A stretch of 64,000 bases of DNA, taken from the NCBI RefSeq assembly GCF_003018255.1, contig NZ_CP027440.1; one strand, written 5' to 3'. Below, piece after piece: positions 1,354 to 53,045 of the stretch. Each line of letters begins with the position of its first letter. Position 1 is the first letter of the stretch. Below the pieces are notes generated by a model, which worked only from the letters and a program-made list of their open reading frames with translations, ran no database searches and was not told the DNA's origin. The stretch comes from Escherichia coli (GTDB taxonomy: Bacteria; Pseudomonadota; Gammaproteobacteria; Enterobacterales; Enterobacteriaceae). A program made the translations under genes and the position numbers.

Positions 1354-3834
1354 ATGGGTATTCAGAATTTCGACCACTCACACCACAAGCTCAAAATTCG
1401 CGGCCTGAAAAGCCCGGTGGACGTGCTGACGTTTACGGGCCGGGAACAACTCAGCGCACCCTTCCGCTACGACATTGAATTTACCAGTACCGATAAAACC
1501 ATCGAGCCGGAGTCGGTGCTGATGCAGGATGGCGCATTCAGCCTGACGGCACCGCCGGTACAGGGAATGCCGGTACAGACTGCCCTGCGCACCCTGCACG
1601 GCGTCATTACCGGCTTTAAACATCTCTCATCGTCACAGGACGAAGCCCGTTACGAAGTGCGCCTTGAACCCCGTATGGCGCTGCTTACCCGCAGCCGCCA
1701 GAACGCCATCTACCAGAACCAGACGGTGCCGCAAATCGTCGAAAAAATCCTGCGCGAGCGGCACCAGATGCGCGGTCAGGACTTCGTGTTTAACCTCAAA
1801 AGCGAATACCCGTCCCGTGAACAGGTGATGCAGTACGGTGAGGACGACCTGACGTTTATTTCACGCCTGCTGTCAGAAGTGGGTATCTGGTTCCGCTTTG
1901 CCACCGACGCCCGGTTGAAAATCGAAGTTATCGAATTTTACGACGACCAGAGCGGCTACGAGCGCGGGCTGACGCTGCCGCTTCGCCATCCTTCTGGGCT
2001 GTTTGATGGTGAAACGGAAGCCGTATGGGGGCTGAACACCGCGTACAGCGTGGTGGAAAAAAGTGTCTCCACGCGGGACTACAACTACCGTGAAGCCACG
2101 GCGGAAATGACCACAGGCCAGCATGACGCCACCGGGGGCGATAACACCACTTACGGCGAAGCCTACCACTATGCCGACAACTTCCTGCAACAAGGCGATA
2201 AAGAGGCAGCGGAAAGCGGCGCGTTTTATGCCCGTATCCGTCACGAACGCTACCTGAATGAACAGGCCATTCTCAAAGGCCAGAGCACCAGTTCACTGCT
2301 GATGCCGGGGCTGGAGATAAAAGTTCAGGGCGACGACGCGCCTGCGGTGTTCCGCAAGGGCGTGCTGATTACCGGCGTGACGACCAGCGCGGCGCGTGAC
2401 CGCAGCTATGAGCTGACGTTCACGGCGATACCGTACTCAGAGCGCTACGGCTACCGTCCGGCGCTTATCCCCCGCCCGGTCATGGCCGGAACGCTCCCGG
2501 CGCGGGTCACCAGCACGGTGAAGAACGATATCTATGCCCATATCGACAAAGACGGGCGCTACCGGGTCAACCTCGATTTTGACCGCGATACGTGGAAACC
2601 GGGTTATGAGAGCCTGTGGGTACGCCAGTCGCGCCCGTATGCGGGAGACACCTACGGCCTGCATCTGCCGCTGCTGGCGGGAACGGAGGTCAGCATCGCG
2701 TTTGAGGAAGGCAACCCGGACCGACCGTATATCGCCGGGGTAAAGCACGACTCGGCGCACACCGACCATGTGACCATCCAGAACTACAAGCGTAACGTGC
2801 TGCGCACCCCAGCAAACAACAAAATCCGCCTCGACGATGAGCGCGGCAAAGAGCATATCAAGGTCAGTACCGAGTACGGCGGCAAGAGCCAGCTAAACCT
2901 CGGCCATCTGGTGGATGCCGGGAAACAGCAGCGCGGCGAAGGCTTTGAACTGCGTACCGATATGTGGGGCGCAGTGCGGGCGAAGAAAGGCATCTTTATC
3001 AGCGCCGATGCGCAGGACAAGGCTCAGGGTCAGGTGCGGGAAATGGCTCCGGCAATGGCAATACTGGATGGCGCACAGTCACAGATGAAGTCGCTGTCCA
3101 CTGATGCGCAGACGGCGAATGCCGATCCGGCAGATCTGTCATCACAGATAGCGCTGTTGCAGCAGAGTGTAAAAGATCTGACGCAGGCGGTGATCCTGCT
3201 AAGCGCACCCAAAGGCGTGGCGATCGCCAGCGGCGAGCACCTGCAACTGGCGGCGGCAAAGAATGTGATAGCCAACGCAGGCAACAACGCCGATGTCGGC
3301 GTGGTGAAAAATATGTTTATCGGCGTGGGACAGGCGCTGAGCGTGTTTGTGCGTAAAGCGGGCATCAAGCTGTTTGCCAATAAGGGCGCAATCTCGGTGC
3401 AGGCGCAGAACGACTTGATGGAACTGTTGGCGAAGAAGGAAATCATCATTACCAGTACCGAAGATGAAATTAAAATCACGGCGAAGAAAAAGATCACCCT
3501 TAACGGCGGTGGCAGCTACATCCGGCTGGATGCCTGTGGGATAGAAGCGGGAACGCCGGGAGAATATAACGTTAAGGCGGGATATTATGGGCGTAAGCCG
3601 AAGGCGAAGCTGACGCCGGAGCTGATGGCGTTTCCGGTGATTGAGGGTGGAGACTATTCTCGCTGTTTTAAATTTTTTGATGACGAAAATATCCCATATC
3701 GTAATGTTAAGTATATAGCCAATTTTATTGATGGAACAAAAAAGGAAGGTGTCACTGATGATGAGGGATGCACCGAAACATTTTTTAGTGATAAAGAAGA
3801 AGAAATTGAAATTGAGATTTTACTTGGTGTTTAA
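1354..3834 (+). CDS. vgrG: T6SS spike protein VgrG with C-terminal extension
   Basis: 826-aa ORF. The N-terminal two thirds read as a gp27/gp5-like VgrG (N-terminal block ...GLKSPVDVLTFTGREQLSAPFRYDIEFTS...). The last ~60 codons are AT-rich and unlike the core. SD AACGGAGG precedes the ATG. Confidence 0.85.
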   Translation: MGIQNFDHSHHKLKIRGLKSPVDVLTFTGREQLSAPFRYDIEFTSTDKTIEPESVLMQDGAFSLTAPPVQGMPVQTALRTLHGVITGFKHLSSSQDEARYEVRLEPRMALLTRSRQNAIYQNQTVPQIVEKILRERHQMRGQDFVFNLKSEYPSREQVMQYGEDDLTFISRLLSEVGIWFRFATDARLKIEVIEFYDDQSGYERGLTLPLRHPSGLFDGETEAVWGLNTAYSVVEKSVSTRDYNYREATAEMTTGQHDATGGDNTTYGEAYHYADNFLQQGDKEAAESGAFYARIRHERYLNEQAILKGQSTSSLLMPGLEIKVQGDDAPAVFRKGVLITGVTTSAARDRSYELTFTAIPYSERYGYRPALIPRPVMAGTLPARVTSTVKNDIYAHIDKDGRYRVNLDFDRDTWKPGYESLWVRQSRPYAGDTYGLHLPLLAGTEVSIAFEEGNPDRPYIAGVKHDSAHTDHVTIQNYKRNVLRTPANNKIRLDDERGKEHIKVSTEYGGKSQLNLGHLVDAGKQQRGEGFELRTDMWGAVRAKKGIFISADAQDKAQGQVREMAPAMAILDGAQSQMKSLSTDAQTANADPADLSSQIALLQQSVKDLTQAVILLSAPKGVAIASGEHLQLAAAKNVIANAGNNADVGVVKNMFIGVGQALSVFVRKAGIKLFANKGAISVQAQNDLMELLAKKEIIITSTEDEIKITAKKKITLNGGGSYIRLDACGIEAGTPGEYNVKAGYYGRKPKAKLTPELMAFPVIEGGDYSRCFKFFDDENIPYRNVKYIANFIDGTKKEGVTDDEGCTETFFSDKEEEIEIEILLGV

Positions 3835-3866
3835 AAATACTACCCTTAATTATTAAAGAGAAAAAA

Positions 3867-4601
3867 ATGAGCAAAAATGTAATATTAAGTAATGGGGAAA
3901 GAGAAAATCCTTCTCCGCTGATCTATGACAAGCATAAAAAGCACTGTATTTTTCGTACAAAGACATTACTTAGTGAAGAGAAAAAAGAAGACGAAAAATG
4001 TACTGTATCAGTTGTATTTATTGATCATGAGGGGTATATAAGAAATGCTGGAATTATAAAACACACAGTCCCTGAACTTGAAGAAGGTCGCATGCCTAAA
4101 ATTAATGCAATAATATTGCATAGAACAGATTCTTCAACAATAAATGGTACACTTGCTAGTTTTTCTAAAGGCATTGGAACTCATTTTATTGTTGAAAAAG
4201 ATGGTAATATATACCAGGCTGCAAGCCTATTTGTATATACCAGCCATGTGGGGAAGATAAAGTCTCGATGTAAGGAGGAAAAAACATGGTCGTCTGAAGA
4301 AAAAAAGAAAACAGAGGCATTCGGATGGAATGCTAAGAAGATACATGATCATGAAAAAATTAAACAATATCCTTATAGATATCCATATAATATGGACAGT
4401 GTTGGCATTGAGGTTATTGCATTATATGATAAAAAAAATAAAAAATGGGAGTCTGCTACAGACTCTCAAAAAAAATCAATTGAGAAACTTGTAGATATAA
4501 TAAAAAATATTTATGAGTTAGAAGATAGGGATGTTTATGAACATGATAAAATTAGTTATAAAACAGAAGGTGAAGGCGCTGATCTCTATAGTGTTAATTA
4601 A
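3867..4601 (+). CDS. Putative T6SS effector, Amidase_2 (PGRP/AmpD/T7-lysozyme-like) N-acetylmuramoyl-L-alanine amidase domain
   Basis: 244 aa with no signal peptide. Motifs ILHRTDS, THFIVEKDGNIYQ, SVGIEVIALYD and EHDKIS resemble Amidase_2 zinc-amidase signatures. AT-rich gene immediately downstream of vgrG. Confidence 0.55.
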   Translation: MSKNVILSNGERENPSPLIYDKHKKHCIFRTKTLLSEEKKEDEKCTVSVVFIDHEGYIRNAGIIKHTVPELEEGRMPKINAIILHRTDSSTINGTLASFSKGIGTHFIVEKDGNIYQAASLFVYTSHVGKIKSRCKEEKTWSSEEKKKTEAFGWNAKKIHDHEKIKQYPYRYPYNMDSVGIEVIALYDKKNKKWESATDSQKKSIEKLVDIIKNIYELEDRDVYEHDKISYKTEGEGADLYSVN

Positions 4602-4980
4602 TTTCTTTTTTTGTTCAAATAGTTACTCCGAAGAAAAAATAGAGATAATAAACATTAATAAACCAATATATATAGGTACCAATCAATCAGATAAGGTGCT
4701 TATTACTGCGTGTAATCATTGGGTGCTTAATTCTAGAGATATTATAGACATATTCAATCTAAGTATAAAGCATGATGATTATGGCGAAATAAACAGAATG
4801 TATTATTGGTTACCTTGTGAAATTAGAGGGAGACTAATGTATGACGGAATAGAATGGAGTTTTGTTATCAATGCTGCTGCAACAGCAATGTGGATGAGCA
4901 ATGATAAAGAGATTTACTGGGGATGCAATAAAAAAGCATGCGATAATTTCTTTTTATTACCATATGATGGGATGAGGTAA
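4543..4980 (+). CDS. Putative secreted (periplasmic) immunity protein for the upstream amidase
   Basis: Start is ambiguous (ATG 4531/4543 or GTG 4570) and overlaps the effector 3' end. N-terminus MIKLVIKQKVKALISIVLINFFFCSNSYS has the form of a Sec signal peptide. Small Cys-rich AT-rich ORF. Confidence 0.45.
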   Translation: MIKLVIKQKVKALISIVLINFFFCSNSYSEEKIEIININKPIYIGTNQSDKVLITACNHWVLNSRDIIDIFNLSIKHDDYGEINRMYYWLPCEIRGRLMYDGIEWSFVINAAATAMWMSNDKEIYWGCNKKACDNFFLLPYDGMR

Positions 4981-5085
4981 ATCACAGTTAATAAAGCAAA
5001 AACATTATGGACAAGTGAATTAATCAGATAGTTCAAGCACCTTGAGATTCATTGTATTCATATTTCAGAATAACGGATTATTACA

Positions 5086-6300
5086 ATGCCCATCCGACTT
5101 AATACCATTCCCGACGCAGAACCCTATCCCGCACCGCCAGCCCGCATTAAATGGCTGTCAGCCTTATTACTGATGCTGTCTGTTGGTGTGGCAATAACCT
5201 CATTATTCGCCAGCGATGAACTGGCAAAAAACGGCCCATATTTCTGGGGGCTGGCCTGCGGCGTGCCTGCTTTTATCTGGTCACTGGTCGGTTCGGTGCG
5301 CTGGCTGGTATTTGTCACTCAACATATTCGTGCCGATGCCTGGAATCAACGTCGCGAAGAAGTCATTTTGCAGGAAACACGGCGGGGACGACGGGCGTTG
5401 CAGATACTCAGTTTTTCCGTACAAACCGCGCTGAATGGTGATTCCGTCGCAGAAACTACAACAGCATTTCTGGCGCGTCATCAGGTGTTGAATACTTACG
5501 CTGATTTGCGCGGAGAAGATACCGTGCGTCGCAGTGTCATTCCCGTATTAACCAATAAACCGGTTACCGGGCGTTTATCCGAAATTATTTCCCGCCTTTT
5601 TATTGATATCAGACCGCAATTGTTTCTGCTGCCCCCTGATTTTCATATCAACGTACTACTGGAAATTGATGCGCCGCTTTCAGGGGCCTCCGTGAGAACT
5701 ATCTGGCAGGACGAATGGCAAAAAGCCGGACTCCCCGAAGCCCGTCTGTTTTCTGCCCCGGAGCCGGGGCTGGCCGCCGTGGACGACTGGCTGGACAACT
5801 TTATTCAGGAAAAGGCCGTACTGCTGGTGATTTCCGTGCGTCTGGAACCGAAGAACCCGGAACGGACGGCAGAATCCGCCACCGCGCTGTTGCTGGCAAA
5901 CCGACTGACGCAAACCGCGCTGACGCCGCTGGCCCTGCTGCATCGTCCTGAACGTATCACAGATACGGAGATGATGGCGTCAGGCATTGCACAGGCGCTG
6001 GACTGGATGCCGGTGCAGCCAGATGCCATATCCGGCATGTGGACAGTCGAACTGAACAGGGAACAGCGCGCCTCGCTGCTGTCATCTAACCAGCCGTTTA
6101 CTCAGGAAGCCCTGATGTACGAGCTGGATGCCTTTCTGGGGTGCTCCGGACCGGCAGCGCCGTGGCTGTCCGTCGCTGCGGCAACGCTGGCGGCAATACA
6201 ATCACAACACCCCCAACTGACGCTCAGCGGCGTTCAGAACGGGCATTATTCATGGGCGACCATGGTGTCGCCATTCGTTTCCCCTCAGGAGGCATCATAG
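5086..6300 (+). CDS. T6SS-associated inner-membrane protein of unknown function (two N-terminal TM helices plus ~330-aa soluble domain)
   Basis: 404-aa ORF. Hydrophobic stretches WLSALLLMLSVGVAITSLFA and FWGLACGVPAFIWSLVGSVRWLVFV lie near the N-terminus. Composition is GC-rich like the T6SS core genes. Placed between the cargo module and tssM. Confidence 0.5.
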   Translation: MPIRLNTIPDAEPYPAPPARIKWLSALLLMLSVGVAITSLFASDELAKNGPYFWGLACGVPAFIWSLVGSVRWLVFVTQHIRADAWNQRREEVILQETRRGRRALQILSFSVQTALNGDSVAETTTAFLARHQVLNTYADLRGEDTVRRSVIPVLTNKPVTGRLSEIISRLFIDIRPQLFLLPPDFHINVLLEIDAPLSGASVRTIWQDEWQKAGLPEARLFSAPEPGLAAVDDWLDNFIQEKAVLLVISVRLEPKNPERTAESATALLLANRLTQTALTPLALLHRPERITDTEMMASGIAQALDWMPVQPDAISGMWTVELNREQRASLLSSNQPFTQEALMYELDAFLGCSGPAAPWLSVAAATLAAIQSQHPQLTLSGVQNGHYSWATMVSPFVSPQEAS

Positions 6301-11286: not shown

Positions 11287-12698
11287 TGGCAATGGGAACA
11301 GGCTACTTTCTGGTCAGGGGGGACAAAACCACCTGCGGCGGCAAAATTATTGAAGGCGCGGACGACCATACGATCATGGGTATCCCGCAGGCGCGGGATA
11401 TGGACCGGGTCACCTGCGGCAGATATCCGGGAATGTTTATTATTGTGGGCGGCGTTCCTGAAACAGATATTCACGGCAGGCTGATGGCGGGGACGCTGGA
11501 CAGTCAGAGCAGTTGCCCGTGTAAGGCACGGTTTATTGCGTCAATGATGGATGATACGTATGAGACGGATGACGGGGAAAGTGAAGCGGAACAACATGCG
11601 CAGTCGGCGAAAAAGGATCTGACTTCTGGTTCTGATTCATCCTCTGATGATGTAAAACTGGATTACAGAATTAAATTATCAGGTAATAAGATACTGACGC
11701 CACTGAATATACCTGATTATAAAGAAATGATTAGCGGTGGTAGTACGAAGAATACAGAAAAAATAGATTTTACCATCACAAATAAAGGCGATGAGGCTGA
11801 AGCGCTTTCTCTGGAAGTGCTTGATGGTAATGAAGTGATTTATAGTGAACGGCAGACCGGTAAATATTGTGATAAGGGAGAGCATGCCTGGCAATGGGAT
11901 GGCTACAGTAATCAAGGCATACTGGATACAACTAAGATAAAAAGCAAATCACTACTCGTAAGACTGATTGCTTTATGTGGTGATATGATGATAAAAGTTG
12001 ATTATCCATTGAAAAATGCTGCGAAAGAAGAAGAGTGGGTTGATGTAAAAGTTGACAGAAATAATAAAGTGGTCGATATAACATGGAGATTATCTGTTAA
12101 GGATAGCGGTACAAAAGGCAGTAACCCTGAGTTATCGCCAATACCTTATAGCGATTTAGTTAGTCTTACTAAAAATGGCGTGGAGTTTTACTGGTCACGA
12201 AATGGAAGTCGCGGCGGGGGAATTGGTGGTAATATCGTTACAGCGATTGGGGTTTTTAAAGTAAATGTAAAGGCTGAGATAAATATTACTCCATCTATGC
12301 GAACTTTTGATTTGATATCATCGTTAGATCCAGATATGCAGTCGTCGGTAAGTCTTTTGGGGTTTGAAAAAATATACCATAACTATGGTGGCTATTATAA
12401 TAACAGCAAGGATGAAATAAAGGCTCTTCTATATAGTAATGAAAGATATAAATGGGATAGTGCTCATGAGATGGGACATAAAGTTATGGATAAATATGGT
12501 TCTGAATCATGGACACATAAGGGGACATCCACGCGGGGTCAAAGTACCATCCCTAATACTCCAATGCCATCTTCAGGAGAGATTGATATAATGAAATATG
12601 CAGATAGCTATGCACCTGATAGATATAAGAGATTGGTCGCGGCAGATGAAGATGTTCAGGCATTGATCTGGTTGAGCAGGGTGAGTTTTAATGATTAG
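11286..12698 (+). CDS. PAAR-like domain protein with C-terminal HExxH (zincin-like) putative toxin domain
   Basis: N-terminus (GDKTTCGGKIIEGADDHTIMGIPQARDMDRVTCG...) resembles PAAR/DUF4150 spike-tip domains. C-terminal region is AT-rich and contains HEMGH. ATG overlaps the tssA stop (TGATG). Confidence 0.6.
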   Translation: MAMGTGYFLVRGDKTTCGGKIIEGADDHTIMGIPQARDMDRVTCGRYPGMFIIVGGVPETDIHGRLMAGTLDSQSSCPCKARFIASMMDDTYETDDGESEAEQHAQSAKKDLTSGSDSSSDDVKLDYRIKLSGNKILTPLNIPDYKEMISGGSTKNTEKIDFTITNKGDEAEALSLEVLDGNEVIYSERQTGKYCDKGEHAWQWDGYSNQGILDTTKIKSKSLLVRLIALCGDMMIKVDYPLKNAAKEEEWVDVKVDRNNKVVDITWRLSVKDSGTKGSNPELSPIPYSDLVSLTKNGVEFYWSRNGSRGGGIGGNIVTAIGVFKVNVKAEINITPSMRTFDLISSLDPDMQSSVSLLGFEKIYHNYGGYYNNSKDEIKALLYSNERYKWDSAHEMGHKVMDKYGSESWTHKGTSTRGQSTIPNTPMPSSGEIDIMKYADSYAPDRYKRLVAADEDVQALIWLSRVSFND

Positions 12699-12713
12699 AA
12701 TAATTGTTTTTTA

Positions 12714-13115
12714 TTGTTTTTTTTGAGTGGGTGTACTTCACAAAAAGAGTATTCCAATATAGTCAGGATTGAGAATAGATGCTCCTCAGATATCGATGTC
12801 TTTATTCAGGGATATGTTTCCGGTTCTACGCTGATTTATCAGCATAATATACACTTGCCAGTTGGTGATAGTGATGTATTAGTATATTTTTCCACGGCAG
12901 ATATTGATGATGGTTTTAAATATGAGGGGGCATTCATGATATATAAAGATAGCCGCGGTGAATTGGATTATCCATTCACCATTTCATTGTCAGGGCGCGA
13001 AAAAAAATTTGGGAAGAATGACTTAATTAGATTATCACGAGATATTTCAACAAAAGACGACAGAAAATACGGAGTTATAAGATATATAATCGACAGTCAG
13101 GAAATTTGCCCGTGA
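12714..13115 (+). CDS. Small AT-rich ORF, candidate immunity protein; 5' end probably disrupted by a homopolymer frameshift
   Basis: The track ORF starts at a TTG. An upstream ATG at 12691 (overlapping the PAAR stop) encodes MIRIIVFYCFF and then hits a stop after a T8 tract. One extra T would give MIRIIVFYCFFLSGC..., a lipoprotein signal with lipobox. Confidence 0.4.
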   Translation: MFFLSGCTSQKEYSNIVRIENRCSSDIDVFIQGYVSGSTLIYQHNIHLPVGDSDVLVYFSTADIDDGFKYEGAFMIYKDSRGELDYPFTISLSGREKKFGKNDLIRLSRDISTKDDRKYGVIRYIIDSQEICP

Positions 13116-13324
13116 TGTTTTAAGTTATTCGTTCACAATTATTAATTATTGCCTATTATGTAAGGTAAATTTAATTTGGTTCAGAAAAGACAAGAATACA
13201 TCATTATTAAAATCAATAAGTCAGCAACTATCCATAATATATTCACATAGAATAAATTTAACTATGATGTTACTTCTACACCTGCATGATATTCACTTTC
13301 AATGAAAGGAAGATAATCCCTCCG

Positions 13325-15085
13325 ATGGACGATCTAACCCAACGCTACTACGAAGCCGAAATGCGCTACCTGCGTGAAGCGGGGAAAGAATTTGCGCAGG
13401 CTTACCCCGACCGCGCCGCGATGCTCAATCTTGATAAACCCGGCGCACGCGATCCCTATGTGGAGCGCCTGTTCGAAGGCTTCGCTTTTTTAATGGGTCG
13501 CCTGCGTGAAAAGCTGGATGACGACCTGCCCGAACTGACCGAGGGGCTGGTCAGCCTGCTGTGGCCTCACTACCTGCGAACCATCCCGTCACTTTCCGTG
13601 GTTGAACTGTCGACAGATCACCGGCAGATGAAGCAGAGCGAAACACTGAGTAATTTTCAGGTATTGTCGCGTCCTGTTGGCGAGCGCAGAACCCGCTGTG
13701 TCTACAGTGCTACGCGGGATATCACGCTGCATCCGCTGGCGCTGCCGGACGTGTCATTGCAATATGAACCGGACGGGCGCTCGGTTATCCGTCTGCGCTT
13801 TGAATGCGGCCCGCTGGTTGGTGACTGGTCACAGATCGATCTATCCCGTTTGCCGCTCTATCTCAATGCCGACAGCCCGGTGGCCTGTGCGCTGCACCGG
13901 GCTTTAACGCTTGGCACCCAGCAGTTCTGGCTGCGTCTGCCGGGGCAGGAACGCCGTGTGCTGGACGCGCACTTTTCCCCGATGGGTTTTGATGACAATG
14001 ACCGACTGTGGCCAAAAGGCGAGTCGGCGTTCAGCGGCTACCAGTTGCTGCTGGAGTATTTCACCTTCCGCGAAAAGTTTATGTTTGTGGCGCTGAACGG
14101 GCTGGAGAACGTCATCTGGCCGGAAGGGATGAGCGGCTTTGAGATTGACGTGGTGCTGAGCGAGAACTGGCCTCACGACCTGCCGTTTGACAGCGATAAT
14201 ATCCGTCTGCACTGCGTGCCGGTCATCAACCTGTTCCCGCTGGAAGCCGATCCGTTACACCTTTCGCCACTGGAAAACGAATTTCTGCTGCGCCCGATGC
14301 GTATTCAGGACGGGCATACCGAGATTTATTCCGTCGACAACATTATTTCTTCGCGCCATACCGGCAGTCAGGCGTATGTCCCGTTTTCCAGCTTTCGTCA
14401 CCGGGGCGGGATGCTGCGCCACGATGCACCGGAACGCTATTACCATACGCGGGTTAAGCGCGGCCCTTCCGGCCTGCATGATACCTGGCTGATTCTGGGC
14501 GGCGATGCGTTTGATTCCGACCGGATGCTGGAGGATGAAACGCTCTCTTTAAGCCTGACCGGCACTAACGGACAGCTTCCCCGTAAGGCTTTACAGAGCA
14601 CGCTGCTTGATACGCCAGTTCATGCCTCACAGAACGTCCTGCGGGTGCGCAACCTGTGCGCCCCGACGCAGCCCTGTTATCCCCCGGCGCGTGACCGCTT
14701 CCACTGGCGGGTGCTCAGCCACCTCGGTTCTAACTTTCTTTCAATGATGGATAACGCCGAAATTCTGCGCGGCACGCTGGCGCTGTACGACTGGACCGAA
14801 AGCGAGATGAACCGCCGCCGTCTGTCGGCGATTGTCGACGTTCAGCACAGCCTGATACAGCGTTTTGAAAGAGGCTTTCTGCTGCGTGGCGTGGATATTC
14901 AGGTGACGCTGGACAGCACCGGCTTTGCCGGAGAGGGTGATATCACGCTGTTTGGCGAACTGCTGCACCGCTTCTTTGCACTGTATGCCGATATCCACTT
15001 ATTCACTCAACTGACCTTAATTCTGCAACCCACAGGAAAGTGCCTGCAATGGACAGAGCATCACAGCCAGCGCGTACCGGGCTGA
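13325..15085 (+). CDS. tssF: TssF (ImpG/VasA family) baseplate protein
   Basis: N-terminus MDDLTQRYYEAEMRYLREAGKEFAQAYPDRAAMLNL matches the conserved TssF N-terminal pattern. The track ORF begins 13 codons upstream at 13286. Confidence 0.8.
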   Translation: MDDLTQRYYEAEMRYLREAGKEFAQAYPDRAAMLNLDKPGARDPYVERLFEGFAFLMGRLREKLDDDLPELTEGLVSLLWPHYLRTIPSLSVVELSTDHRQMKQSETLSNFQVLSRPVGERRTRCVYSATRDITLHPLALPDVSLQYEPDGRSVIRLRFECGPLVGDWSQIDLSRLPLYLNADSPVACALHRALTLGTQQFWLRLPGQERRVLDAHFSPMGFDDNDRLWPKGESAFSGYQLLLEYFTFREKFMFVALNGLENVIWPEGMSGFEIDVVLSENWPHDLPFDSDNIRLHCVPVINLFPLEADPLHLSPLENEFLLRPMRIQDGHTEIYSVDNIISSRHTGSQAYVPFSSFRHRGGMLRHDAPERYYHTRVKRGPSGLHDTWLILGGDAFDSDRMLEDETLSLSLTGTNGQLPRKALQSTLLDTPVHASQNVLRVRNLCAPTQPCYPPARDRFHWRVLSHLGSNFLSMMDNAEILRGTLALYDWTESEMNRRRLSAIVDVQHSLIQRFERGFLLRGVDIQVTLDSTGFAGEGDITLFGELLHRFFALYADIHLFTQLTLILQPTGKCLQWTEHHSQRVPG

Positions 15086-16128
15086 CCGACCGGCTGGCCC
15101 CGGATATTGCGCGGATCAATTTTTACCGTTTTTGCCAGTTGCTGGAACAGAGCCCGCAGAACGCGCCGCTGGGCAGTACCGACAGCCCCGCCACCGATGC
15201 GGTGCGCTTTCGTCCTCATCCAGGTATGGGCTTTCCGGTCAGCGAGTTAAAAAACGTTGAACGTGACGTGGGCAATCCCGACGCGCCCCCCACGGTGCGC
15301 ACCACTTTTCTCGGCCTGTACGGCGTGGATTCGCCGCTGCCAACCGCCTATCTGGACTACATTACCCAGCGTCATGACGGACATGACGCAGTGATGGCGT
15401 TTCTCGATATTTTTAACCATCGCTTTATTACTCAGTACTACCGCATCTGGCGCAAATATAACTACCCGGCGTCGTTTGAAGCAGGTGCCGTGGATGACAT
15501 TTCCCGTTGTCTGCTGGGACTCATCGGGCTGGGTATTCCCGGCAGCGAGAACCATATCGCCACGCCGGTATCCCGTTTTCTGGCCCTGCTCAGCGTGATG
15601 CGCCTGCCGACGCGCACGGCGGAAGGCGTTACGGCACTGGTGGGACTGCTTGCCCCGCTGACGAAAGCGACGGTGGTGCCTCATGATCCGCAGCCTGTAA
15701 TTCTCCCGGCCCCTGCGGGTCTGTCAAAAAATTCACGCATCAGCCTGAAAACGCGAACGCTGCTGGGGCGTACCGGTACCGACGTCAACAGCCAGTTGCT
15801 GCTGAAACTGTATACCGAAGATGCCGCAGAAGCGCGTGGCTGGCTGCCCGGCGGGCAACTGCACAGCGATTTGCTGGTGCTGCTGCGCGTTTATCTGGGC
15901 TGGCGCTGTCAGGCCCGTCTGCAACTGACGCTGCCCGTCAGCCTGTTGCCTGCTGCCCGGCTGGGAAAACAGCGTGTACAGATTAGCCGTACCGGCATCC
16001 TTCGCGCCTCCTTTGCCGCGCCCGCGACCGGAACAGTGACGGTCAGTCTGGGGCGTTATCAGGGATTAATACCCGCTTTTTCCATTCGTAACAGGGAGAG
16101 TATGACTCATGTTTCCTATTCGTTTTAA
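15049..16128 (+). CDS. tssG: TssG baseplate protein
   Basis: N-terminal ...INFYRFCQLLEQ... is typical of TssG. ATG at 15049 follows SD AGGAAAG and overlaps the tssF 3' end. Confidence 0.8.
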   Translation: MDRASQPARTGLTDRLAPDIARINFYRFCQLLEQSPQNAPLGSTDSPATDAVRFRPHPGMGFPVSELKNVERDVGNPDAPPTVRTTFLGLYGVDSPLPTAYLDYITQRHDGHDAVMAFLDIFNHRFITQYYRIWRKYNYPASFEAGAVDDISRCLLGLIGLGIPGSENHIATPVSRFLALLSVMRLPTRTAEGVTALVGLLAPLTKATVVPHDPQPVILPAPAGLSKNSRISLKTRTLLGRTGTDVNSQLLLKLYTEDAAEARGWLPGGQLHSDLLVLLRVYLGWRCQARLQLTLPVSLLPAARLGKQRVQISRTGILRASFAAPATGTVTVSLGRYQGLIPAFSIRNRESMTHVSYSF

Positions 16129-16645
16129 ACGTCCGGCGTTGCTCTGTATGGCGATGCTGACGGTTGTTCTGAGTGGCTGCGGGCTGATTCAGAAAGTGGT
16201 GGATGAATCGAAAAGCGTGGCCTCAGCCGTTTTCTACAAACAAATCAAAATACTGCATCTCGATTTCTTCTCCCGCAGCGCCCTGAATACGGATGCGGAA
16301 GATACGCCGCTTTCCACGATGGTGCATGTCTGGCAACTGAAAACCCGCGAAGATTTTGATAAGGCGGATTATGACACCCTGTTTATGCAGGAAGAGAAGA
16401 CGCTGGAGAAGGACGTACTGGCAAAACACACCGTCTGGGTAAAACCTGAAGGCACGGCATCCCTGAATGTGCCGCTGGATAAAGAGACGCAGTTTGTCGC
16501 CATTATTGGGCAGTTTTATCACCCGGATGAAAAAAGCGACAGCTGGCGTCTGGTGATCAAAAGGGACGAACTGGAGGCCGACAAGCCGCGCTCGATTGAA
16601 CTGATGAGAAGCGACCTGCGACTGCTGCCTCTCAAGGATAAATAA
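16109..16645 (+). CDS. tssJ: TssJ outer-membrane lipoprotein
   Basis: 178 aa. Signal peptide with lipobox (MLTVVLSGCGL). Size and position between tssG and tssE. Confidence 0.8.
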   Translation: MFPIRFKRPALLCMAMLTVVLSGCGLIQKVVDESKSVASAVFYKQIKILHLDFFSRSALNTDAEDTPLSTMVHVWQLKTREDFDKADYDTLFMQEEKTLEKDVLAKHTVWVKPEGTASLNVPLDKETQFVAIIGQFYHPDEKSDSWRLVIKRDELEADKPRSIELMRSDLRLLPLKDK

Positions 16646-16648
16646 CCG

Positions 16649-17077
16649 ATGGCGACACCTTCCTTATATGAAATGCTGACGTTCAGTTTCAGCGGCGAGT
16701 TACCGCTGGAACAGGTCAGTGAGCGGGATCAGCTTATCCTTTCCGTGATGGACAATATGCAACGCATTATCAACTGTCGGGCAGGCACACTGGCGCATTT
16801 GCCGGATTACGGTCTGCCGGATCTCAGCCTGATCCATCAGGGGATGGCTGCGGGTATTCATAGCCTGATGCGCCAGATTGAAGAAACGCTGCTGCGTTAT
16901 GAACCACGCCTGAATCAGATACAGGTGGAGTTACTGCCCCAGCCCGGTCCGGGGCATCTTAATTACCTGATCCACGCGCAGCTTCCCGATACCGGCTGGA
17001 TACGCTTTGATGGCGTATTTTCTCCGGAAGGACGAATTGTTCTGCGTCATCTCAAACAACAGGAGCGGGCGTACTGA
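16649..17077 (+). CDS. tssE: TssE (gp25-like) baseplate protein
   Basis: 142-aa protein of gp25/GPW25 size class. Stop overlaps the next gene start (TGATG). Confidence 0.75.
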   Translation: MATPSLYEMLTFSFSGELPLEQVSERDQLILSVMDNMQRIINCRAGTLAHLPDYGLPDLSLIHQGMAAGIHSLMRQIEETLLRYEPRLNQIQVELLPQPGPGHLNYLIHAQLPDTGWIRFDGVFSPEGRIVLRHLKQQERAY

Positions 17078-18453
17078 TGGCAAGTAACGCGAATTTTATC
17101 AGCCAGTTCGTCATGGGCGGCGATCCCTGTACTTATAAGGAATCCGGTGAACTGCAGGCTGAAATGAGTAAACTGACTCACCCGGCCCGACCGGATGTGG
17201 ACTGGCGTCAGGTGGAAAAACTCTGCCTCGCGCTGTTCCGGCAAAATGGCGTGGAACTACAGACGCTGGTCTGTTACGTGCTGGCAATAACCAGACGGCA
17301 GGGGCTGGCAGGGATGGCAGACGGACTCGGTTCACTGGATATACTGCTCCAGCGCTGGGCTGACTTCTGGCCGGTACAGGTACATTCCAGAATATCACTG
17401 CTCAGCTGGGTCACAGAAAAAATGCAGCAGGCACTGAGAACGCTGGATATTCAGTATCAGGATCTGCCGCAGATCTACCGTTGTGTACAGCATCTTTCCG
17501 CCATCGAAACCACGCTGCAACAGTGTGAACTGTGGCATATGACGAAGCTGGACGTATTGTCCGGGCAGTTTCGCAATGCGGCTCTGCGTCTGGAACGGCT
17601 GGCGCCTCAGGGAGCGGAAACCATTATCACTCCCCCTGAATTACCCCGCCGGGAAATGAATCAACCGAAAAAGTCAGAGGAAAGTCCACAGCCGGTTTTT
17701 GCAACCAGATCCGTTCAGCAAAACGATAAGGATGCCAGTCCACCCGTGCCATCCCCTGAAATCTCCCGGCAGCGGACATGGCCGATATTTATGGCCGGAA
17801 TGGTTGTGATGGCCGGTCTCGGCGGAACAGGATTATGGGGCTGGTCGCAGCTTAATCAGCCGGACGCGCTAATCCAGCGAATACAACTGTCTGTCATGCC
17901 GTTGCCGCAGTCGCTGGAGAGCGGCGAACTGGCAAAGCTGGATGTAAAGGATAAGGCGCTGCTGGCTCAGGACAGAACAATTGCGGCAAGTCAGATGCAA
18001 CTGGAGCAGTTAAACAAATTGCCTGCCCGCTGGCCACTGGAGCAGGGATATCGCCAGCTACGCCAGCTTGATGCCCTGTGGCCGGATAATCCTCAGGTCA
18101 GGGCGCTGAACGCGCAGTGGCGCAAACAGCGGGAGCTGAGCGCCCTGTCTGCTGAGGCACTGAATGGCTATGCTCAGGCGCAGAGCCAGCTACAGCGCCT
18201 GTCGGCGCAGCTGGATGCACTGGATGAACGTAAGGGGAGATATCTGACCGGTTCGGAACTAAAAACGGCGGTGTACGGCATCCGGCAGTCGTTAAAGGAG
18301 CCGCCGCTGGAAGAACTGCTTCGGCAACTGGAAGAGCAAAAACAGACCGGAGAGGTTTCGCCAACGCTGTTGACGCAAATTGATACCCGGTTAAATCAGT
18401 TGTTGAATCGCTATGTCATTTTACTGGATACGAAGGTGGAACAAAGTCAGTAA
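17077..18453 (+). CDS. ImpA_N-domain, membrane-anchored T6SS accessory protein (TagA/VasL-like)
   Basis: N-terminal ImpA_N-like region, one hydrophobic helix (WPIFMAGMVVMAGLGGTGLWGW), and a C-terminal Q/L/E/R-rich region with heptad-like character. Last gene of the + strand cluster. Confidence 0.6.
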   Translation: MASNANFISQFVMGGDPCTYKESGELQAEMSKLTHPARPDVDWRQVEKLCLALFRQNGVELQTLVCYVLAITRRQGLAGMADGLGSLDILLQRWADFWPVQVHSRISLLSWVTEKMQQALRTLDIQYQDLPQIYRCVQHLSAIETTLQQCELWHMTKLDVLSGQFRNAALRLERLAPQGAETIITPPELPRREMNQPKKSEESPQPVFATRSVQQNDKDASPPVPSPEISRQRTWPIFMAGMVVMAGLGGTGLWGWSQLNQPDALIQRIQLSVMPLPQSLESGELAKLDVKDKALLAQDRTIAASQMQLEQLNKLPARWPLEQGYRQLRQLDALWPDNPQVRALNAQWRKQRELSALSAEALNGYAQAQSQLQRLSAQLDALDERKGRYLTGSELKTAVYGIRQSLKEPPLEELLRQLEEQKQTGEVSPTLLTQIDTRLNQLLNRYVILLDTKVEQSQ

Positions 18454-18660
18454 ACATCGGGGGATTTATGTACCAATAAGGGATATGTGACCTTGCCATT
18501 TTTTAAAATGGAGTCTCTGTGTACAAAAAAGAGAGGAACAGGCCATTCGATCTACTCGTTGATTCACATCAGATAATGAGTGTATATTTCGGTAGATAGC
18601 TTGGGTTCGGGAACAGTGAATACCTTAAGTTTCAAAAGATTGGATTAACCTCTTGACTGT

Positions 18661-18674
18661 GGCCCCCGCAACCA
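18661..18674 (+). repeat. 14-nt segment identical to the 3' end of initiator tRNA-fMet (GGCCCCCGCAACCA); putative island attachment-site remnant
   Basis: Exact match to the acceptor-stem 3' strand plus discriminator and CCA of E. coli tRNA-fMet as I recall it. No full tRNA is present in the window. Lies at the boundary between the T6SS cluster and the downstream region. Confidence 0.55.
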
Positions 18675-18692
18675 ATTTATTAGAATGCTGAC

Positions 18693-18728
18693 AAACCGCA
18701 ATGTGTTCTACAAATTGCGGTTTTTTTG
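18693..18728 (+). terminator. Rho-independent terminator ending the T6SS operon
   Basis: Inverted repeat AAACCGCAAT / ATTGCGGTTT followed by TTTTTTT. Confidence 0.6.
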
Positions 18729-18753
18729 TATTTAAAATCTTTGTTCGCTGAAC

Positions 18754-19710
18754 TCACAACACGTTTTTTATCTCCCTTCCTGCGAAGTAATCAATTATCG
18801 ACTGGGCAACGTGTATCCCGGTTTGCTGGTATGACTCAACGGTGGCGGCCGCGATATGCGGCGTTGTAATGATATTTTTGGCATGTAGCAGTGGGCTAAA
18901 TTGCGCCAACGGTTCAGAGCTAAACACATCCAGCGCCGCAAACACATTTCGTTCTTCAATCACCTGAAGTAAAGCGCCCTCATCCAGCAACTTTCCCCTT
19001 GCGGCATTGATGATCAGAGCACCATTGCGCATCATCGACAAATATTTATGACTAATGAAGTTCTCCAGCTCAGAAGAAAAAGGCAAAAGAACAATGATGA
19101 CATGCGACTGCATAAAGATATCTTCAATTGATACAAACTGAACTCCAGCTTTGTCAGCAACCTGATAGTCGGGTTGTTTGTCAAAAGCTAAAAGCTCAAC
19201 ATCAAAACCAGATAACCTTTTCGCCAGTGTTTTGCCAATATTGCCGTAGCCAAGCAGGCCAATACGTTTACCTTGTAACTCGCAGCCATGCGACTCACCC
19301 CAATAACCATTTTGCATTGCATGATAGCTACCGGGGATATTTCTCATGCTCGCAAAAATAAGACCGATGATAAATTCCGCGACTGCGTTTGAATTAATCC
19401 CAACAGCATTATTGACCACAATACCTGATTGTCGAGCCGTATGAAGATCAATATTATCAATCCCTGTCCCGAATCTCGATATTATTTTCACTCCTGGTAG
19501 TCGCGATAACGTATCCGCTTGATAACAATCTTTTCCGGCAATGACTGCGCAAATAGATTCTCGTAATACTGTGGATTCTGATTTAACCAGATGCTCCACA
19601 TTATTCTTGATAATAAGGTTAAAATGATTTTCTCTTAGCAGCTTGCTGGCAGAAACACAACGCGCTGAAAAGCTGGGAACGGTGACCAGAACGTTTTTCA
19701 TAGCTGACAC
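18754..19710 (-). CDS. D-isomer-specific 2-hydroxyacid dehydrogenase family protein
   Basis: 318 aa. NAD-binding motif GLLGYGNIGKTLAKRL. Low-GC gene. Confidence 0.7.
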   Translation of the reverse strand: MSAMKNVLVTVPSFSARCVSASKLLRENHFNLIIKNNVEHLVKSESTVLRESICAVIAGKDCYQADTLSRLPGVKIISRFGTGIDNIDLHTARQSGIVVNNAVGINSNAVAEFIIGLIFASMRNIPGSYHAMQNGYWGESHGCELQGKRIGLLGYGNIGKTLAKRLSGFDVELLAFDKQPDYQVADKAGVQFVSIEDIFMQSHVIIVLLPFSSELENFISHKYLSMMRNGALIINAARGKLLDEGALLQVIEERNVFAALDVFSSEPLAQFSPLLHAKNIITTPHIAAATVESYQQTGIHVAQSIIDYFAGREIKNVL

Positions 19711-19771
19711 TCACATCAATGAACGCCACCCCAAAAGATGGCGTGACCGGTTACTGTTTTATATTCTAAAA

Positions 19772-20368
19772 TTATGAGTTTGCTTTAATACCGAGCGCAC
19801 CTCCTGGATGATATAAGCCGAAATCAGCACGAGTAAACTTTTTCAATTCGGAGAGCGCAAGCGCCACCGCATCACCAACAACCAGAACGACTGTTGATGA
19901 GCATGACGGCGCTAAACCTAAATTATCCGCCTCACTTTTTACGGGAATTTCAACGGATAAATCACAACTTATCGCAAGCGATGAGCGATGACTGCGGGTA
20001 AAGGAGATCAAATAATTACCCATTTTTTTCAGACTAGGTAGTGTTGCCAGGATTTCTGTCGTCTCACCACTGTTTGAAATAAGAATAACAACATCATCTT
20101 TCGCCACCATCCCAAGATCGCCGTGTACGGCTTCAGTACCGTGAACAAAAAACGAGGGAGTTCCAGTGCTGGCAAATGTTGCGGCGAGTTTTCGGGCAAT
20201 AATACCGGACTTACCGACACCAATAAAAACAACTTTCCCCTGACAAGACTGTAATACTTTAATTAAATTTGCGACCTCCGAAAGGGGGGAATCAATAACT
20301 TCTTCAACTGCTTTATGTTCGTTACGCATAAAATGTTTAATGAGATGGATAAGATCCGTACTGTTCAT
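19772..20368 (-). CDS. SIS-domain sugar-phosphate isomerase (KpsF/GutQ-like, no CBS domains)
   Basis: 198 aa. SIS-like block VVFIGVGKSGIIARKLAATFASTGTPSFFVH...ILISNSGETTEIL. Confidence 0.65.
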   Translation of the reverse strand: MNSTDLIHLIKHFMRNEHKAVEEVIDSPLSEVANLIKVLQSCQGKVVFIGVGKSGIIARKLAATFASTGTPSFFVHGTEAVHGDLGMVAKDDVVILISNSGETTEILATLPSLKKMGNYLISFTRSHRSSLAISCDLSVEIPVKSEADNLGLAPSCSSTVVLVVGDAVALALSELKKFTRADFGLYHPGGALGIKANS

Positions 20369-52849: not shown

Positions 52850-52963
52850 ATCTTGATTGTGGTCTGCACGACGACTCTTCGCCAGTGAGAAAACGCAAAG
52901 GAATGAAGGGAAATGCAACGAGGTGTGTAAATTGTCGGTTACTGTTACAGATTGATGACCGGC

Positions 52964-53045
52964 AAAAAAAACCTGCGCATCTGCGCAGGCTGGTGTAATT
53001 CATGTGCTCAACCCGAAGTTGACTTCACCTATCAATACCTCTGGG
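52964..53045 (-). ncRNA. omrB: Small regulatory RNA OmrB
   Basis: Paralogous unit: CCCAGAGGTATTGATAGGTGAAGTCAAC..., terminator CCTGCGCAGATGCGCAGG plus T-run. Confidence 0.8.

What the first reader, a model, noticed from the sequence alone, without database searches (positions are those of the whole stretch)
12691..13115. Candidate immunity lipoprotein gene interrupted at a T8 homopolymer
An ATG at 12691, overlapping the PAAR gene stop (ATGATTAG), opens MIRIIVFYCFF and then terminates immediately after a T8 run (12717-12724). One extra T (or two fewer) would fuse it in frame to LSGCTSQKEY..., giving a lipoprotein signal peptide with lipobox LSGC and a ~130-aa mature protein. As written, the body is only translatable from a TTG with no signal peptide. 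This is either a homopolymer sequencing error, a slipped-strand on/off switch, or an inactivated immunity gene.
Basis: seen in the sequence. Interest (0 to 1): 0.65.

Follow-up and report, generated by a model that had tools for sequence, protein, structure and literature searches.

The report
Frameshifted T6SS immunity lipoprotein gene
This is the small lipoprotein gene that should protect an E. coli cell from its own type VI secretion toxin; here it is knocked out of frame by one missing T, and the same gene is out of frame in about a fifth of the E. coli genomes that carry it while the toxin gene stays intact.

Summary
The sequence facts are correct: ATG at 12691 overlaps the PAAR stop, T8 lies at 12717-12724, TGA follows at 12724-12726, and a lipobox LSGC lies in another frame. 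The lesion, however, is not in the T8 run. In 77 of 79 complete E. coli genomes with this locus the tracts are T7+T8. The window is T6+T8, so the missing T is in the upstream run (12707-12712). The native product is a 141-aa prolipoprotein, MIRIIVFLLFFLSGC… (not …FYCFFLSGC), encoded directly after a PAAR-HExxH toxin inside a T6SS cluster. A small lipoprotein gene follows the toxin in the same way in Salmonella and Pseudomonas.

The gene breaks easily. Its signal-peptide region is an 11-nt tandem repeat, [ATTG-T7][ATTG-T8], and an A8 run lies further in. Public genomes carry T7+T7, an 11-nt deletion, an 11-nt duplication, A7, A9 (422 contigs; 11 of 79 complete genomes) and A10. The toxin is intact in every out-of-frame locus I inspected.

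The window's T6+T8 allele was found nowhere else, and the window has two other unique one-base contractions in A-runs, so an assembly error remains a serious rival (about 35%). I favour a real slippage mutation that makes a null or leaky allele (about 55%). This is an ordinary kind of lesion in an uncharacterised effector-immunity family.

The parts
11292..12698 (+). PAAR-domain T6SS effector gene (468 aa from MGTGYF; the ORF can also start at ATG 11286) with a C-terminal HExxH zinc-metallopeptidase-like toxin domain; intact.
12465..12479 (+). HEMGH codons (zinc-binding/catalytic motif of the toxin).
   Evidence: Read from sequence; invariant columns H203, E204, G206, H207 in alignment A4.
12680..12685 (+). 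GGTGAG, a Shine-Dalgarno-like element 5 nt upstream of the immunity ATG.
   Evidence: Read from sequence; function inferred. No comparable element precedes the TTG at 12714.
12691..12726 (+). Truncated reading frame from the native start: ATG…MIRIIVFYCFF, then TGA. The start overlaps the PAAR stop (ATGATTAG, TAG at 12696-12698).
   Evidence: the same 8-nt overlap is found in Pseudomonas, Salmonella and a second E. coli type.
12703..12724 (+). Imperfect 11-nt tandem repeat [ATTG-T6][ATTG-T8]; it is [ATTG-T7][ATTG-T8] in intact genes. It encodes the hydrophobic core of the signal peptide.
   Evidence: Alleles with one unit (11-nt deletion), three units (11-nt duplication), 7+7 and 6+8 were seen.
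12707..12712 (+). T6 run: the actual site of the lesion (T7 in all other genomes examined).
   Evidence: 77 of 79 complete genomes are T7+T8.
12717..12726 (+). T8 run followed by GA. In the ATG frame it reads U_UUU_UUU_UGA, a perfect X_XXY_YYZ slippery heptamer followed by a stop codon. The body ORF lies in the -1 frame.
   Evidence: Sequence and frame arithmetic. Any rescue by a -1 ribosomal slip or a +1 transcriptional slip is inference, based on PMC10861913, PMC5574713 and PMC1088944.
12714..13115 (+). Body of the immunity gene: a 133-aa ORF from TTG with no signal peptide. It is in the same frame as the PAAR gene, separated only by TAG 12696-12698.
   Evidence: It equals residues 9-141 of the intact Ser-variant protein P0009.
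12723..12734 (+). Lipobox codons L-S-G-C (Cys codon TGT at 12732-12734).
   Evidence: Sequence. L-[SAH]-G-C is conserved in all full-length homologues. Named 'Lipoprotein' in UniRef.
12891..12893 (+). TCC (Ser) where most genomes have CCC (Pro); marks the Ser-variant lineage.
   Evidence: The intact Ser-variant is on 471 contigs.
13000..13007 (+). A8 run (codons for …EKK…), the second hot spot in the gene. It is A8 (in frame) in the window.
   Evidence: A9 in 11 and A10 in 2 of 79 complete genomes. Contigs: A9 on 422, A10 on 28, A7 on 2-3.

Best explanation
Window 12691-13115 is the cognate immunity gene of the PAAR-metallopeptidase effector encoded just upstream, inside an E. coli T6SS cluster.

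In its intact form it makes a 141-aa prolipoprotein. Translation starts at an ATG that overlaps the toxin's stop codon. The signal peptide MIRIIVFLLFFLSGC would send the protein across the inner membrane. Cys15 would be lipidated. The mature protein of about 127 aa, with its conserved Cys31 and Cys140, would face the periplasm and neutralise incoming toxin there.

In the window one T is missing from the first of two T-runs (T7->T6 at 12707-12712). This is most likely a replication-slippage mutation in an 11-nt tandem repeat that is a recurrent mutational hot spot. Translation from the ATG now stops after 11 codons. The rest of the gene can be read only from a TTG that has no ribosome-binding site and no signal peptide. 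As written, the allele is therefore null, or at best leaky: a -1 ribosomal slip or a +1 transcriptional slip on the T8 run would give MIRIIVFYCFFLSGC….

Shown: the position of the frameshift, the intact form in relatives, the lipobox, the conserved gene order, the toxin's zincin signature, and the recurrence of out-of-frame alleles.

Inferred: the immunity function, the periplasmic location, that the lesion exists in the cells rather than only in the assembly, and any leakiness.
For: Position and nature of the lesion.

Intact form:
- 77 of 79 complete genomes are T7+T8.
- The gene is annotated as a 141-aa CDS.
- The intact Ser-variant is on 471 contigs and the Pro-variant on >=1000.
- The closest T6SS-region relative, L031, differs by 2 SNPs in 20.4 kb and has the intact gene.

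Immunity role:
- An 8-nt start/stop overlap with the PAAR toxin gene, inside the T6SS cluster.
- The same arrangement, with a lipobox and the shared N-x-C … ICP motifs, in Salmonella, Pseudomonas and a second E. coli type.
- Toxin family with invariant HExGH…H…M and metzincin-like best fold matches.
- Experimental precedent that a periplasmic T6SS metallopeptidase is neutralised only by an immunity protein that keeps its signal peptide (PMC6899460).

Reality of such lesions:
- 11-nt deletion and 11-nt duplication alleles, which are not homopolymer artefacts.
- T7+T7 in at least five assemblies from several projects, one of them with a second lesion at the lipobox Cys.
- A9 in 11 complete genomes and 422 contigs from NCBI, Logan and ENA, on at least two haplotype backgrounds.
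- Other draft assemblies show comparable unique homopolymer changes in the neighbouring effector module.
- No other coding frameshift in the 64-kb window relative to close relatives.
Against: The T6+T8 allele is a singleton:
- It is absent from 79 complete genomes.
- Its 133-aa Ser-variant product is absent from a collection of 15 billion proteins.
- It is absent from 4 metagenome contigs.

The window also carries two other lineage-specific one-base contractions of long A-runs: A7->A6 near 18524 and A9->A8 near 52963. These stand against only about 2 SNPs per 20 kb to its nearest relatives. All three contractions go the same way, which is what consensus under-calling of homopolymers would produce.

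The immunity function is inferred from context only. The family has no Pfam, NCBIfam or PDB match and the AF2 model is poor (pLDDT 61).

An intact toxin beside a broken immunity gene is awkward if the T6SS is active.
Confidence: 0.55

Rival explanations
1. Assembly or sequencing artefact. The strain really has T7+T8 and an intact immunity gene; the consensus under-called a 7-nt homopolymer by one base.
For: The allele was found nowhere else. The window has two more unique one-base contractions in A-runs (near 18524 and 52963) and no unique expansions, against about 2 SNPs per 20 kb to its nearest relatives. That is 3 of roughly 30 long A/T runs. The two JNE assemblies also disagree with each other at one A-run (63940), which shows that homopolymer noise exists in this set of assemblies.
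Against: At the other polymorphic runs the window agrees with the majority (3860, 4300 and 63940). No other gene in 64 kb is frameshifted. Real out-of-frame alleles of this gene are common, including 11-nt indels and A9 in hundreds of independent assemblies. Illumina-type drafts show similar numbers of unique homopolymer changes in the same island.
Confidence: 0.35
2. A selected, reversible slipped-strand switch (contingency locus). The 11-nt repeat and the T/A runs toggle production of the exported lipoprotein on and off within populations.
For: There are repeats in the signal-peptide coding region whose unit length is not a multiple of 3. Seven length alleles exist among very similar genomes. 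At least 19% of complete genomes are out of frame. A9 occurs on two haplotype backgrounds. A T-run of 6-8 nt sits at the same place in four of the five other homologue groups, including T7 in a 55%-GC Pseudomonas gene.
Against: The tracts are short (7-8 nt; two repeat copies) for high-rate switching in mismatch-repair-proficient E. coli (my own knowledge). The 11-nt repeat is unique to this allele, and the P0003 homologue has no T-run. The runs are explained by AT-rich Phe, Leu and Lys codons. There is no evidence of within-strain heterogeneity or reversion. No literature precedent for phase-variable T6SS immunity turned up.
Confidence: 0.05
3. The lesion is real but phenotypically suppressed. 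Enough full-length prolipoprotein is made, by a -1 ribosomal frameshift at U_UUU_UUU_UGA (12717-12726) or by insertion of one U during transcription of the T8 or T6 run, to keep the cell immune.
For: Either event gives an in-frame precursor with an n-region, an h-region and the LSGC lipobox. In E. coli, single-base-deletion mutants are rescued by -1 slips at X_XXY_YYZ heptamers; bulk efficiency was about 4% in vitro for one reporter (PMC10861913). Transcriptional single-base insertions rise exponentially with A/T run length up to 9 nt (PMC5574713). Leaky rescue would also explain why the A9 allele persists next to an intact toxin.
Against: No stimulatory element was identified. Selection against slippage typically appears only at 9 nt (PMC1088944), and the run here is 8. 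[quoted passage not shown] The efficiency is unknown and may be far too low to matter.
Confidence: 0.1

Closest known systems
Tpe/Tpi pairs: P. aeruginosa VgrG2b C-terminal metallopeptidase with PA0261, and A. baylyi Tpe1/Tpi1 (PMC6899460)
   Same: A T6SS-delivered HExxH metallopeptidase toxin acts in the periplasm. The immunity gene lies directly downstream. The immunity protein needs its signal peptide to protect. Conserved cysteines and DsbA matter. The enterobacterial homologues are predicted lipoproteins.
   Different: No detectable sequence relationship for either the toxin or the immunity protein. The toxin here is fused to PAAR rather than VgrG. No experiment has been done on this family.
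Classical periplasmic T6SS effector-immunity pairs (Tse1/Tsi1, Tae/Tai, Tle/Tli)
   Same: A two-gene toxin-immunity unit inside a T6SS cluster, with an exported immunity protein. A second such pair (an Amidase_2 effector and a small downstream gene) sits after vgrG in the same window.
   Different: Different folds and activities. The substrate of the toxin here is unknown.
Slipped-strand phase variation in leader-peptide coding repeats, e.g. the Neisseria opa CTCTT repeats (my own knowledge, not checked here)
   Same: Repeats whose unit length is not a multiple of 3 lie in the signal-peptide coding region, so changes in copy number or tract length move the mature protein in or out of frame.
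   Different: Only two repeat copies and runs of 7-8 nt. Out-of-frame alleles are a minority and look like inherited losses. No switching has been shown.
Frameshift rescue by transcriptional slippage at A/T runs (Thermus dnaX A9, IS elements and disrupted ORFs with 9A/9T runs; PMC1088944)
   Same: A frameshifted ORF with a long A/T run at the junction, where adding one base to the mRNA restores the frame. The common A9 allele of this gene meets the 9-nt length.
   Different: The window's run is T8, below the length at which slippage is usually efficient. No transcript data are available.

Membership tests
T6SS effector-immunity pair (immunity gene) | Small gene directly downstream of, and co-oriented with, an effector gene inside or beside a T6SS cluster | tested here: met
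   The ATG overlaps the PAAR toxin stop. The flanking genes are tssM, tssA, tssF, tssG, tssJ and tssE.
T6SS effector-immunity pair (immunity gene) | Toxin-immunity linkage conserved in distant relatives of the toxin | tested here: met
   Pseudomonas, Salmonella and a second E. coli type all have a small lipoprotein gene with the same 8-nt overlap and the shared N-x-C … ICP motifs.
T6SS effector-immunity pair (immunity gene) | Protects against, and binds, the cognate toxin | not testable with these tools
   Needs competition, co-expression and binding assays.
Bacterial lipoprotein (Lgt/LspA substrate) | N-terminal signal peptide with a positively charged n-region, a hydrophobic h-region and a lipobox [LVI][ASTVI][GAS]C | tested here: met
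   In the intact allele: M-I-R, IIVFLLFF, L-S-G-C15, conserved in homologues. This is a motif check only; no signal-peptide predictor was run.
Bacterial lipoprotein (Lgt/LspA substrate) | The signal peptide and the mature protein are in one reading frame in this window | tested here: not met
   The ATG frame stops at 12724-12726, before the lipobox. The body is readable only from TTG 12714.
Tpe/Tpi (VgrG2b-Cter/PA0261) family | Sequence homology of the toxin or immunity protein to the solved or characterised members | tested here: not met
Zincin/metzincin metallopeptidase (the toxin) | HExxH motif with a further zinc ligand and a Met-turn, on a zincin fold | tested here: inconclusive
Slipped-strand contingency (phase-variable) locus | Repeat tract within the ORF, with length polymorphism among close relatives that changes the frame | tested here: met
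   Alleles 7+8, 6+8, 7+7, 8, 7+7+8, and A7/A8/A9/A10.
Slipped-strand contingency (phase-variable) locus | High-frequency reversible switching within a clonal population | not testable with these tools
   Needs reads or amplicon sequencing. The tracts are short for this (inference).
Slipped-strand contingency (phase-variable) locus | Repeat architecture conserved across diverged homologues | tested here: inconclusive
   A T6-T8 run sits at the same place in four of the five other homologue groups but is absent in P0003. The 11-nt repeat is unique to this allele.
Programmed transcriptional-slippage site | A/T run of about 9 nt or more at the frame junction | tested here: not met
   The window has T6 and T8. 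The threshold comes from PMC1088944. The A9 allele in other genomes would meet it.

The most novel reading that the evidence does not exclude
The immunity gene of this PAAR-metallopeptidase effector is a hypermutable locus, with an 11-nt repeat plus T7, T8 and A8 runs. Its frame state is toggled, or rescued at the RNA or ribosome level, so that cells keep an intact toxin while varying or rationing their own immunity lipoprotein. This would be a first case of slippage-controlled T6SS immunity in E. coli, and it would explain why about one carrier in five is out of frame.
Probability: 0.07. Interest if true: 0.7.

Novelty: new member of a known kind. Interest (0 to 1): 0.35.

Why it matters
For this window, the practical point is annotation. 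The 133-aa TTG-start ORF should not be called a functional protein; it is a frameshifted copy of a 141-aa lipoprotein gene.

More broadly, the locus defines an uncharacterised T6SS effector-immunity family: a PAAR-fused zincin-like toxin with a disulfide-type lipoprotein immunity protein, found in E. coli, Salmonella, Citrobacter, Serratia and Pseudomonas.

It also shows an unusual population pattern. The toxin gene is intact, with at most one or two amino-acid substitutions, while the immunity gene is out of frame at one of three slippage-prone sites in about 20% of carriers. If the T6SS is active in such strains, they should be sensitive to their own kin. This gives a simple testable system for how bacteria tolerate, or exploit, loss of T6SS immunity.

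Tried and rejected
Rejected by alignment: T8 is the wild-type length and the missing base is in the T7 run.
- **Further disrupted alleles in sister loci.** L026 has no gene call and L029 has a short call, but both are identical in DNA to their intact partners, so these are annotation differences.
- **Family assignment of the immunity protein.** No NCBIfam match, no meaningful PDB match, and the homologues' precomputed Pfam column is empty. The AF2 model had pLDDT 61, too poor for a fold search.
- **Prior description.** No paper cites the protein accessions, and none describes slippage-variable T6SS immunity genes.
- **T6SS1/2/3 class.** The review consulted does not cover this locus next to the tRNA-Met genes, so no class is assigned.
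- **A dead T6SS as a general explanation for tolerated immunity loss.** APEC O2-211 (A9) has every core gene annotated intact, although 20Ec-P-124 (A9) and 2009C-3133 (intact immunity gene) each have a frameshifted tssH.
- **The window assembly as grossly homopolymer-error-prone.** Only three unique contractions and one coding frameshift in 64 kb, so this is neither established nor excluded.
- **Metagenome scan for more alleles.** Only four contigs, all T7+T8.
Full report
**Observation.**
- An ATG at 12691 overlaps the stop of the upstream PAAR gene (ATGATTAG, TAG at 12696-12698).
- That frame reads MIRIIVFYCFF and ends at TGA 12724-12726, straight after a T8 run (12717-12724).
- The remaining 133 codons (12714-13115) are open only from a TTG and begin MFFLSGCTSQ….
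- A GGTGAG element lies 5 nt before the ATG. Nothing comparable precedes the TTG.
- In this allele the body ORF is in the same frame as the PAAR gene, separated from it only by the TAG.

**Context.** The locus is the AT-rich cargo part (GC about 0.36, against about 0.6 in the flanks) of an E. coli T6SS cluster. The cluster is inserted next to three tRNA-Met genes, between mltA and amiC/argA. The window starts inside tssH and carries, in order: vgrG, an Amidase_2/PGRP effector with a small downstream gene, a 404-aa membrane protein, tssM, tssA, the PAAR protein, the gene in question, then tssF, tssG, tssJ, tssE and vasL. All of these are intact.

**Where the lesion really is.** Of 5,426 complete E. 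coli genomes, 79 carry this region at >=99% identity. In those examined, the gene is annotated as a 426-nt CDS that starts at the overlapping ATG and encodes the 141-aa protein MIRIIVFLLFFLSGCTSQ…. Alignment shows that the T8 run is T8 in the intact genes too. The window lacks one T in the upstream run, T6 at 12707-12712 against T7. Of the 79 genomes, 77 are T7+T8.

**What the gene is.** The family is small and has no Pfam, NCBIfam or PDB relative.
- All full-length homologues keep a lipoprotein signal peptide with L-[SAH]-G-C. UniRef calls the intact protein 'Lipoprotein'.
- The upstream protein has an N-terminal PAAR motif.
- Its C-terminal region belongs to a family found in Enterobacteriaceae, Pseudomonas and, without PAAR, in Bacteroidota. 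That family has invariant HExGH, H220, E241, D243 and M245.
- In Pseudomonas, Salmonella and a second E. coli type, the toxin gene is likewise followed, with the same 8-nt overlap, by a small lipoprotein gene. These share an N-x-C motif near the mature N-terminus and a C-terminal ICP. This suggests a periplasmic, disulfide-bonded protein.

On this basis I infer a periplasm-acting metallopeptidase effector with a lipoprotein immunity protein. The closest characterised analogue is VgrG2b-Cter/PA0261 (Tpe/Tpi). There, the immunity protein without its signal peptide fails to protect, DsbA matters, and the enterobacterial homologues are predicted lipoproteins (PMC6899460). No sequence relationship to that family was detected, so this is an analogy and not membership.

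**The gene breaks easily.** The signal-peptide coding region is an imperfect 11-nt tandem repeat, [ATTG-T7][ATTG-T8], and an A8 run lies at 13000-13007. Public assemblies carry these out-of-frame alleles:

| Allele | Where seen |
|---|---|
| T7+T7 | Three JNE genomes (Japan) and two unrelated drafts, one also with the lipobox Cys codon mutated to CGT |
| One repeat unit (11-nt deletion) | Two backgrounds |
| Three repeat units (11-nt duplication) | One draft shown, plus two similar places not shown |
| A7 | 2-3 contigs, plus one low-coverage metagenome contig |
| A9 | 11 complete genomes; 422 contigs |
| A10 | 2 complete genomes; 28 contigs |

At least 15 of 79 complete genomes (19%) are therefore out of frame. 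A9 lies on at least two haplotype backgrounds. One of them (APEC O2-211) has every T6SS core gene annotated intact, while the other (20Ec-P-124) has a frameshifted tssH. In every out-of-frame locus I inspected the PAAR toxin gene is full-length and keeps HEMGH, with at most one or two amino-acid substitutions. The toxin gene has no A/T run longer than 6 nt.

The runs themselves follow from AT-rich Phe, Leu and Lys codons. The 11-nt repeat is unique to this allele. A T6-T8 run does recur at the same place in four of the five other homologue groups, including a 55%-GC Pseudomonas gene.

**Real mutation or artefact in this window?** Over the core region the window is about 100.0% identical to the T7+T7 JNE genomes. 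In the T6SS region its nearest relative is L031, which has the intact Ser-variant gene and differs by only 2 SNPs in 20.4 kb.

For an artefact:
- The T6+T8 allele occurs nowhere else that I could search.
- The window has two further unique one-base contractions in A-runs, near 18524 and 52963, and no unique expansions.

For a real lesion:
- The window agrees with the majority at the other polymorphic runs.
- It has no other frameshifted gene in 64 kb.
- Other draft assemblies show similar numbers of private homopolymer changes in the same island.
- Natural out-of-frame alleles of this very gene are abundant, and some are 11-nt events that cannot be base-calling noise.

I put this at about 55:35 in favour of a real slippage mutation. 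Only reads or resequencing can settle it.

**Consequence.** As written, the ATG frame yields an 11-aa peptide. The body lacks a ribosome-binding site and a signal peptide, so no exported lipoprotein is expected and the allele is null for a periplasmic immunity function.

- **A -1 ribosomal slip.** The ATG frame ends U_UUU_UUU_UGA (12717-12726), a perfect X_XXY_YYZ heptamer followed by a stop codon, and the body is in the -1 frame. Non-programmed -1 suppression of single-base deletions at such heptamers occurs at the per-cent level in E. coli (PMC10861913).
- **Insertion of one U during transcription of the T8 run.** Such insertions rise exponentially with run length up to 9 nt (PMC5574713). 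However, selection against slippery runs usually appears only at 9 nt (PMC1088944).

Both routes are inference, and no efficiencies are known for this site.

**Verdict.** This is a genuine T6SS immunity-type lipoprotein gene carrying a one-base frameshift in its signal-peptide region. The lesion is of an ordinary kind and may be an assembly error. What is less ordinary is the population pattern: a slippage-prone immunity gene that is out of frame in about a fifth of carriers, next to a toxin gene that stays intact. A selected on/off switch is not excluded, but the evidence for it is weak (about 5-7%).

Noticed in passing
window 3867-4980: The first effector-immunity pair after vgrG (an Amidase_2/PGRP effector at 3867-4601 and a 129-aa gene at 4591-4980) is intact in the window but varies at homopolymers in relatives: A7/A8 at 3861, A7/A6 at 4300, A8/A9 at 4431 and 4468, A6/A5 at 4502, T7/T8 at 4606. 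This gives truncated amidase calls (627 or 654 nt instead of 735) in the JNE strains, 2009C-3133, L031 and L032.
   Followed up: partly
window 18525-18530 and 52964-52971: Two further one-base contractions specific to the window, both in intergenic A-runs. A6 where all close relatives have A7 (after vasL), and A8 where the four closest relatives have A9 (between aas and galR; A8 also occurs in the more distant MINF_1D). These bear on whether the immunity frameshift is an assembly artefact.
   Followed up: yes
window 2000-3000 and 13000-20000: SNPs between the window and the JNE genomes cluster in vgrG and in the stretch from tssF to vasL and beyond (about 240 SNPs), whereas 44-64 kb is about 100.0% identical. 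This suggests recombination tracts that end next to the effector-immunity island.
   Followed up: partly
window 12696-12716: In the T6+T8 allele the body of the immunity ORF is in the same frame as the PAAR toxin gene and separated from it only by TAG 12696-12698, so readthrough of that stop codon would fuse toxin and immunity protein.
   Followed up: no
L046 and L048 (Salmonella enterica), toxin gene at about 150-1608: In the Salmonella sister locus the PAAR toxin gene itself is frameshifted at an A6->A7 run while the downstream immunity gene (P0002) is intact. This is the opposite pattern to the one in E. coli.
   Followed up: partly
L024 (Pseudomonas fluorescens) 3903-5090: The homologous PAAR toxin is followed by three small genes. 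The first two are paralogues of each other and share the N-x-C … ICP/FCP motifs of the immunity family. The first of these has a lipobox (YGC); the second does not.
   Followed up: no
L013 (GCA_020732185.1), about 1335-1420: A T7+T7 allele that also has the lipobox cysteine codon changed from TGT to CGT. A second lesion is consistent with ongoing decay of an already inactive gene.
   Followed up: no
L006 1-2322 (2009C-3133) and L053 11167-13792 (20Ec-P-124): tssH (ClpV) is annotated as frameshifted in two genomes that carry this cluster, so the T6SS is probably inactive in some carriers.
   Followed up: no
window 5086-6300: A conserved 404-aa hypothetical protein with hydrophobic N-terminal segments lies between the amidase pair and tssM. 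It is present in all related clusters. Its function is unknown and I did not study it.
   Followed up: no
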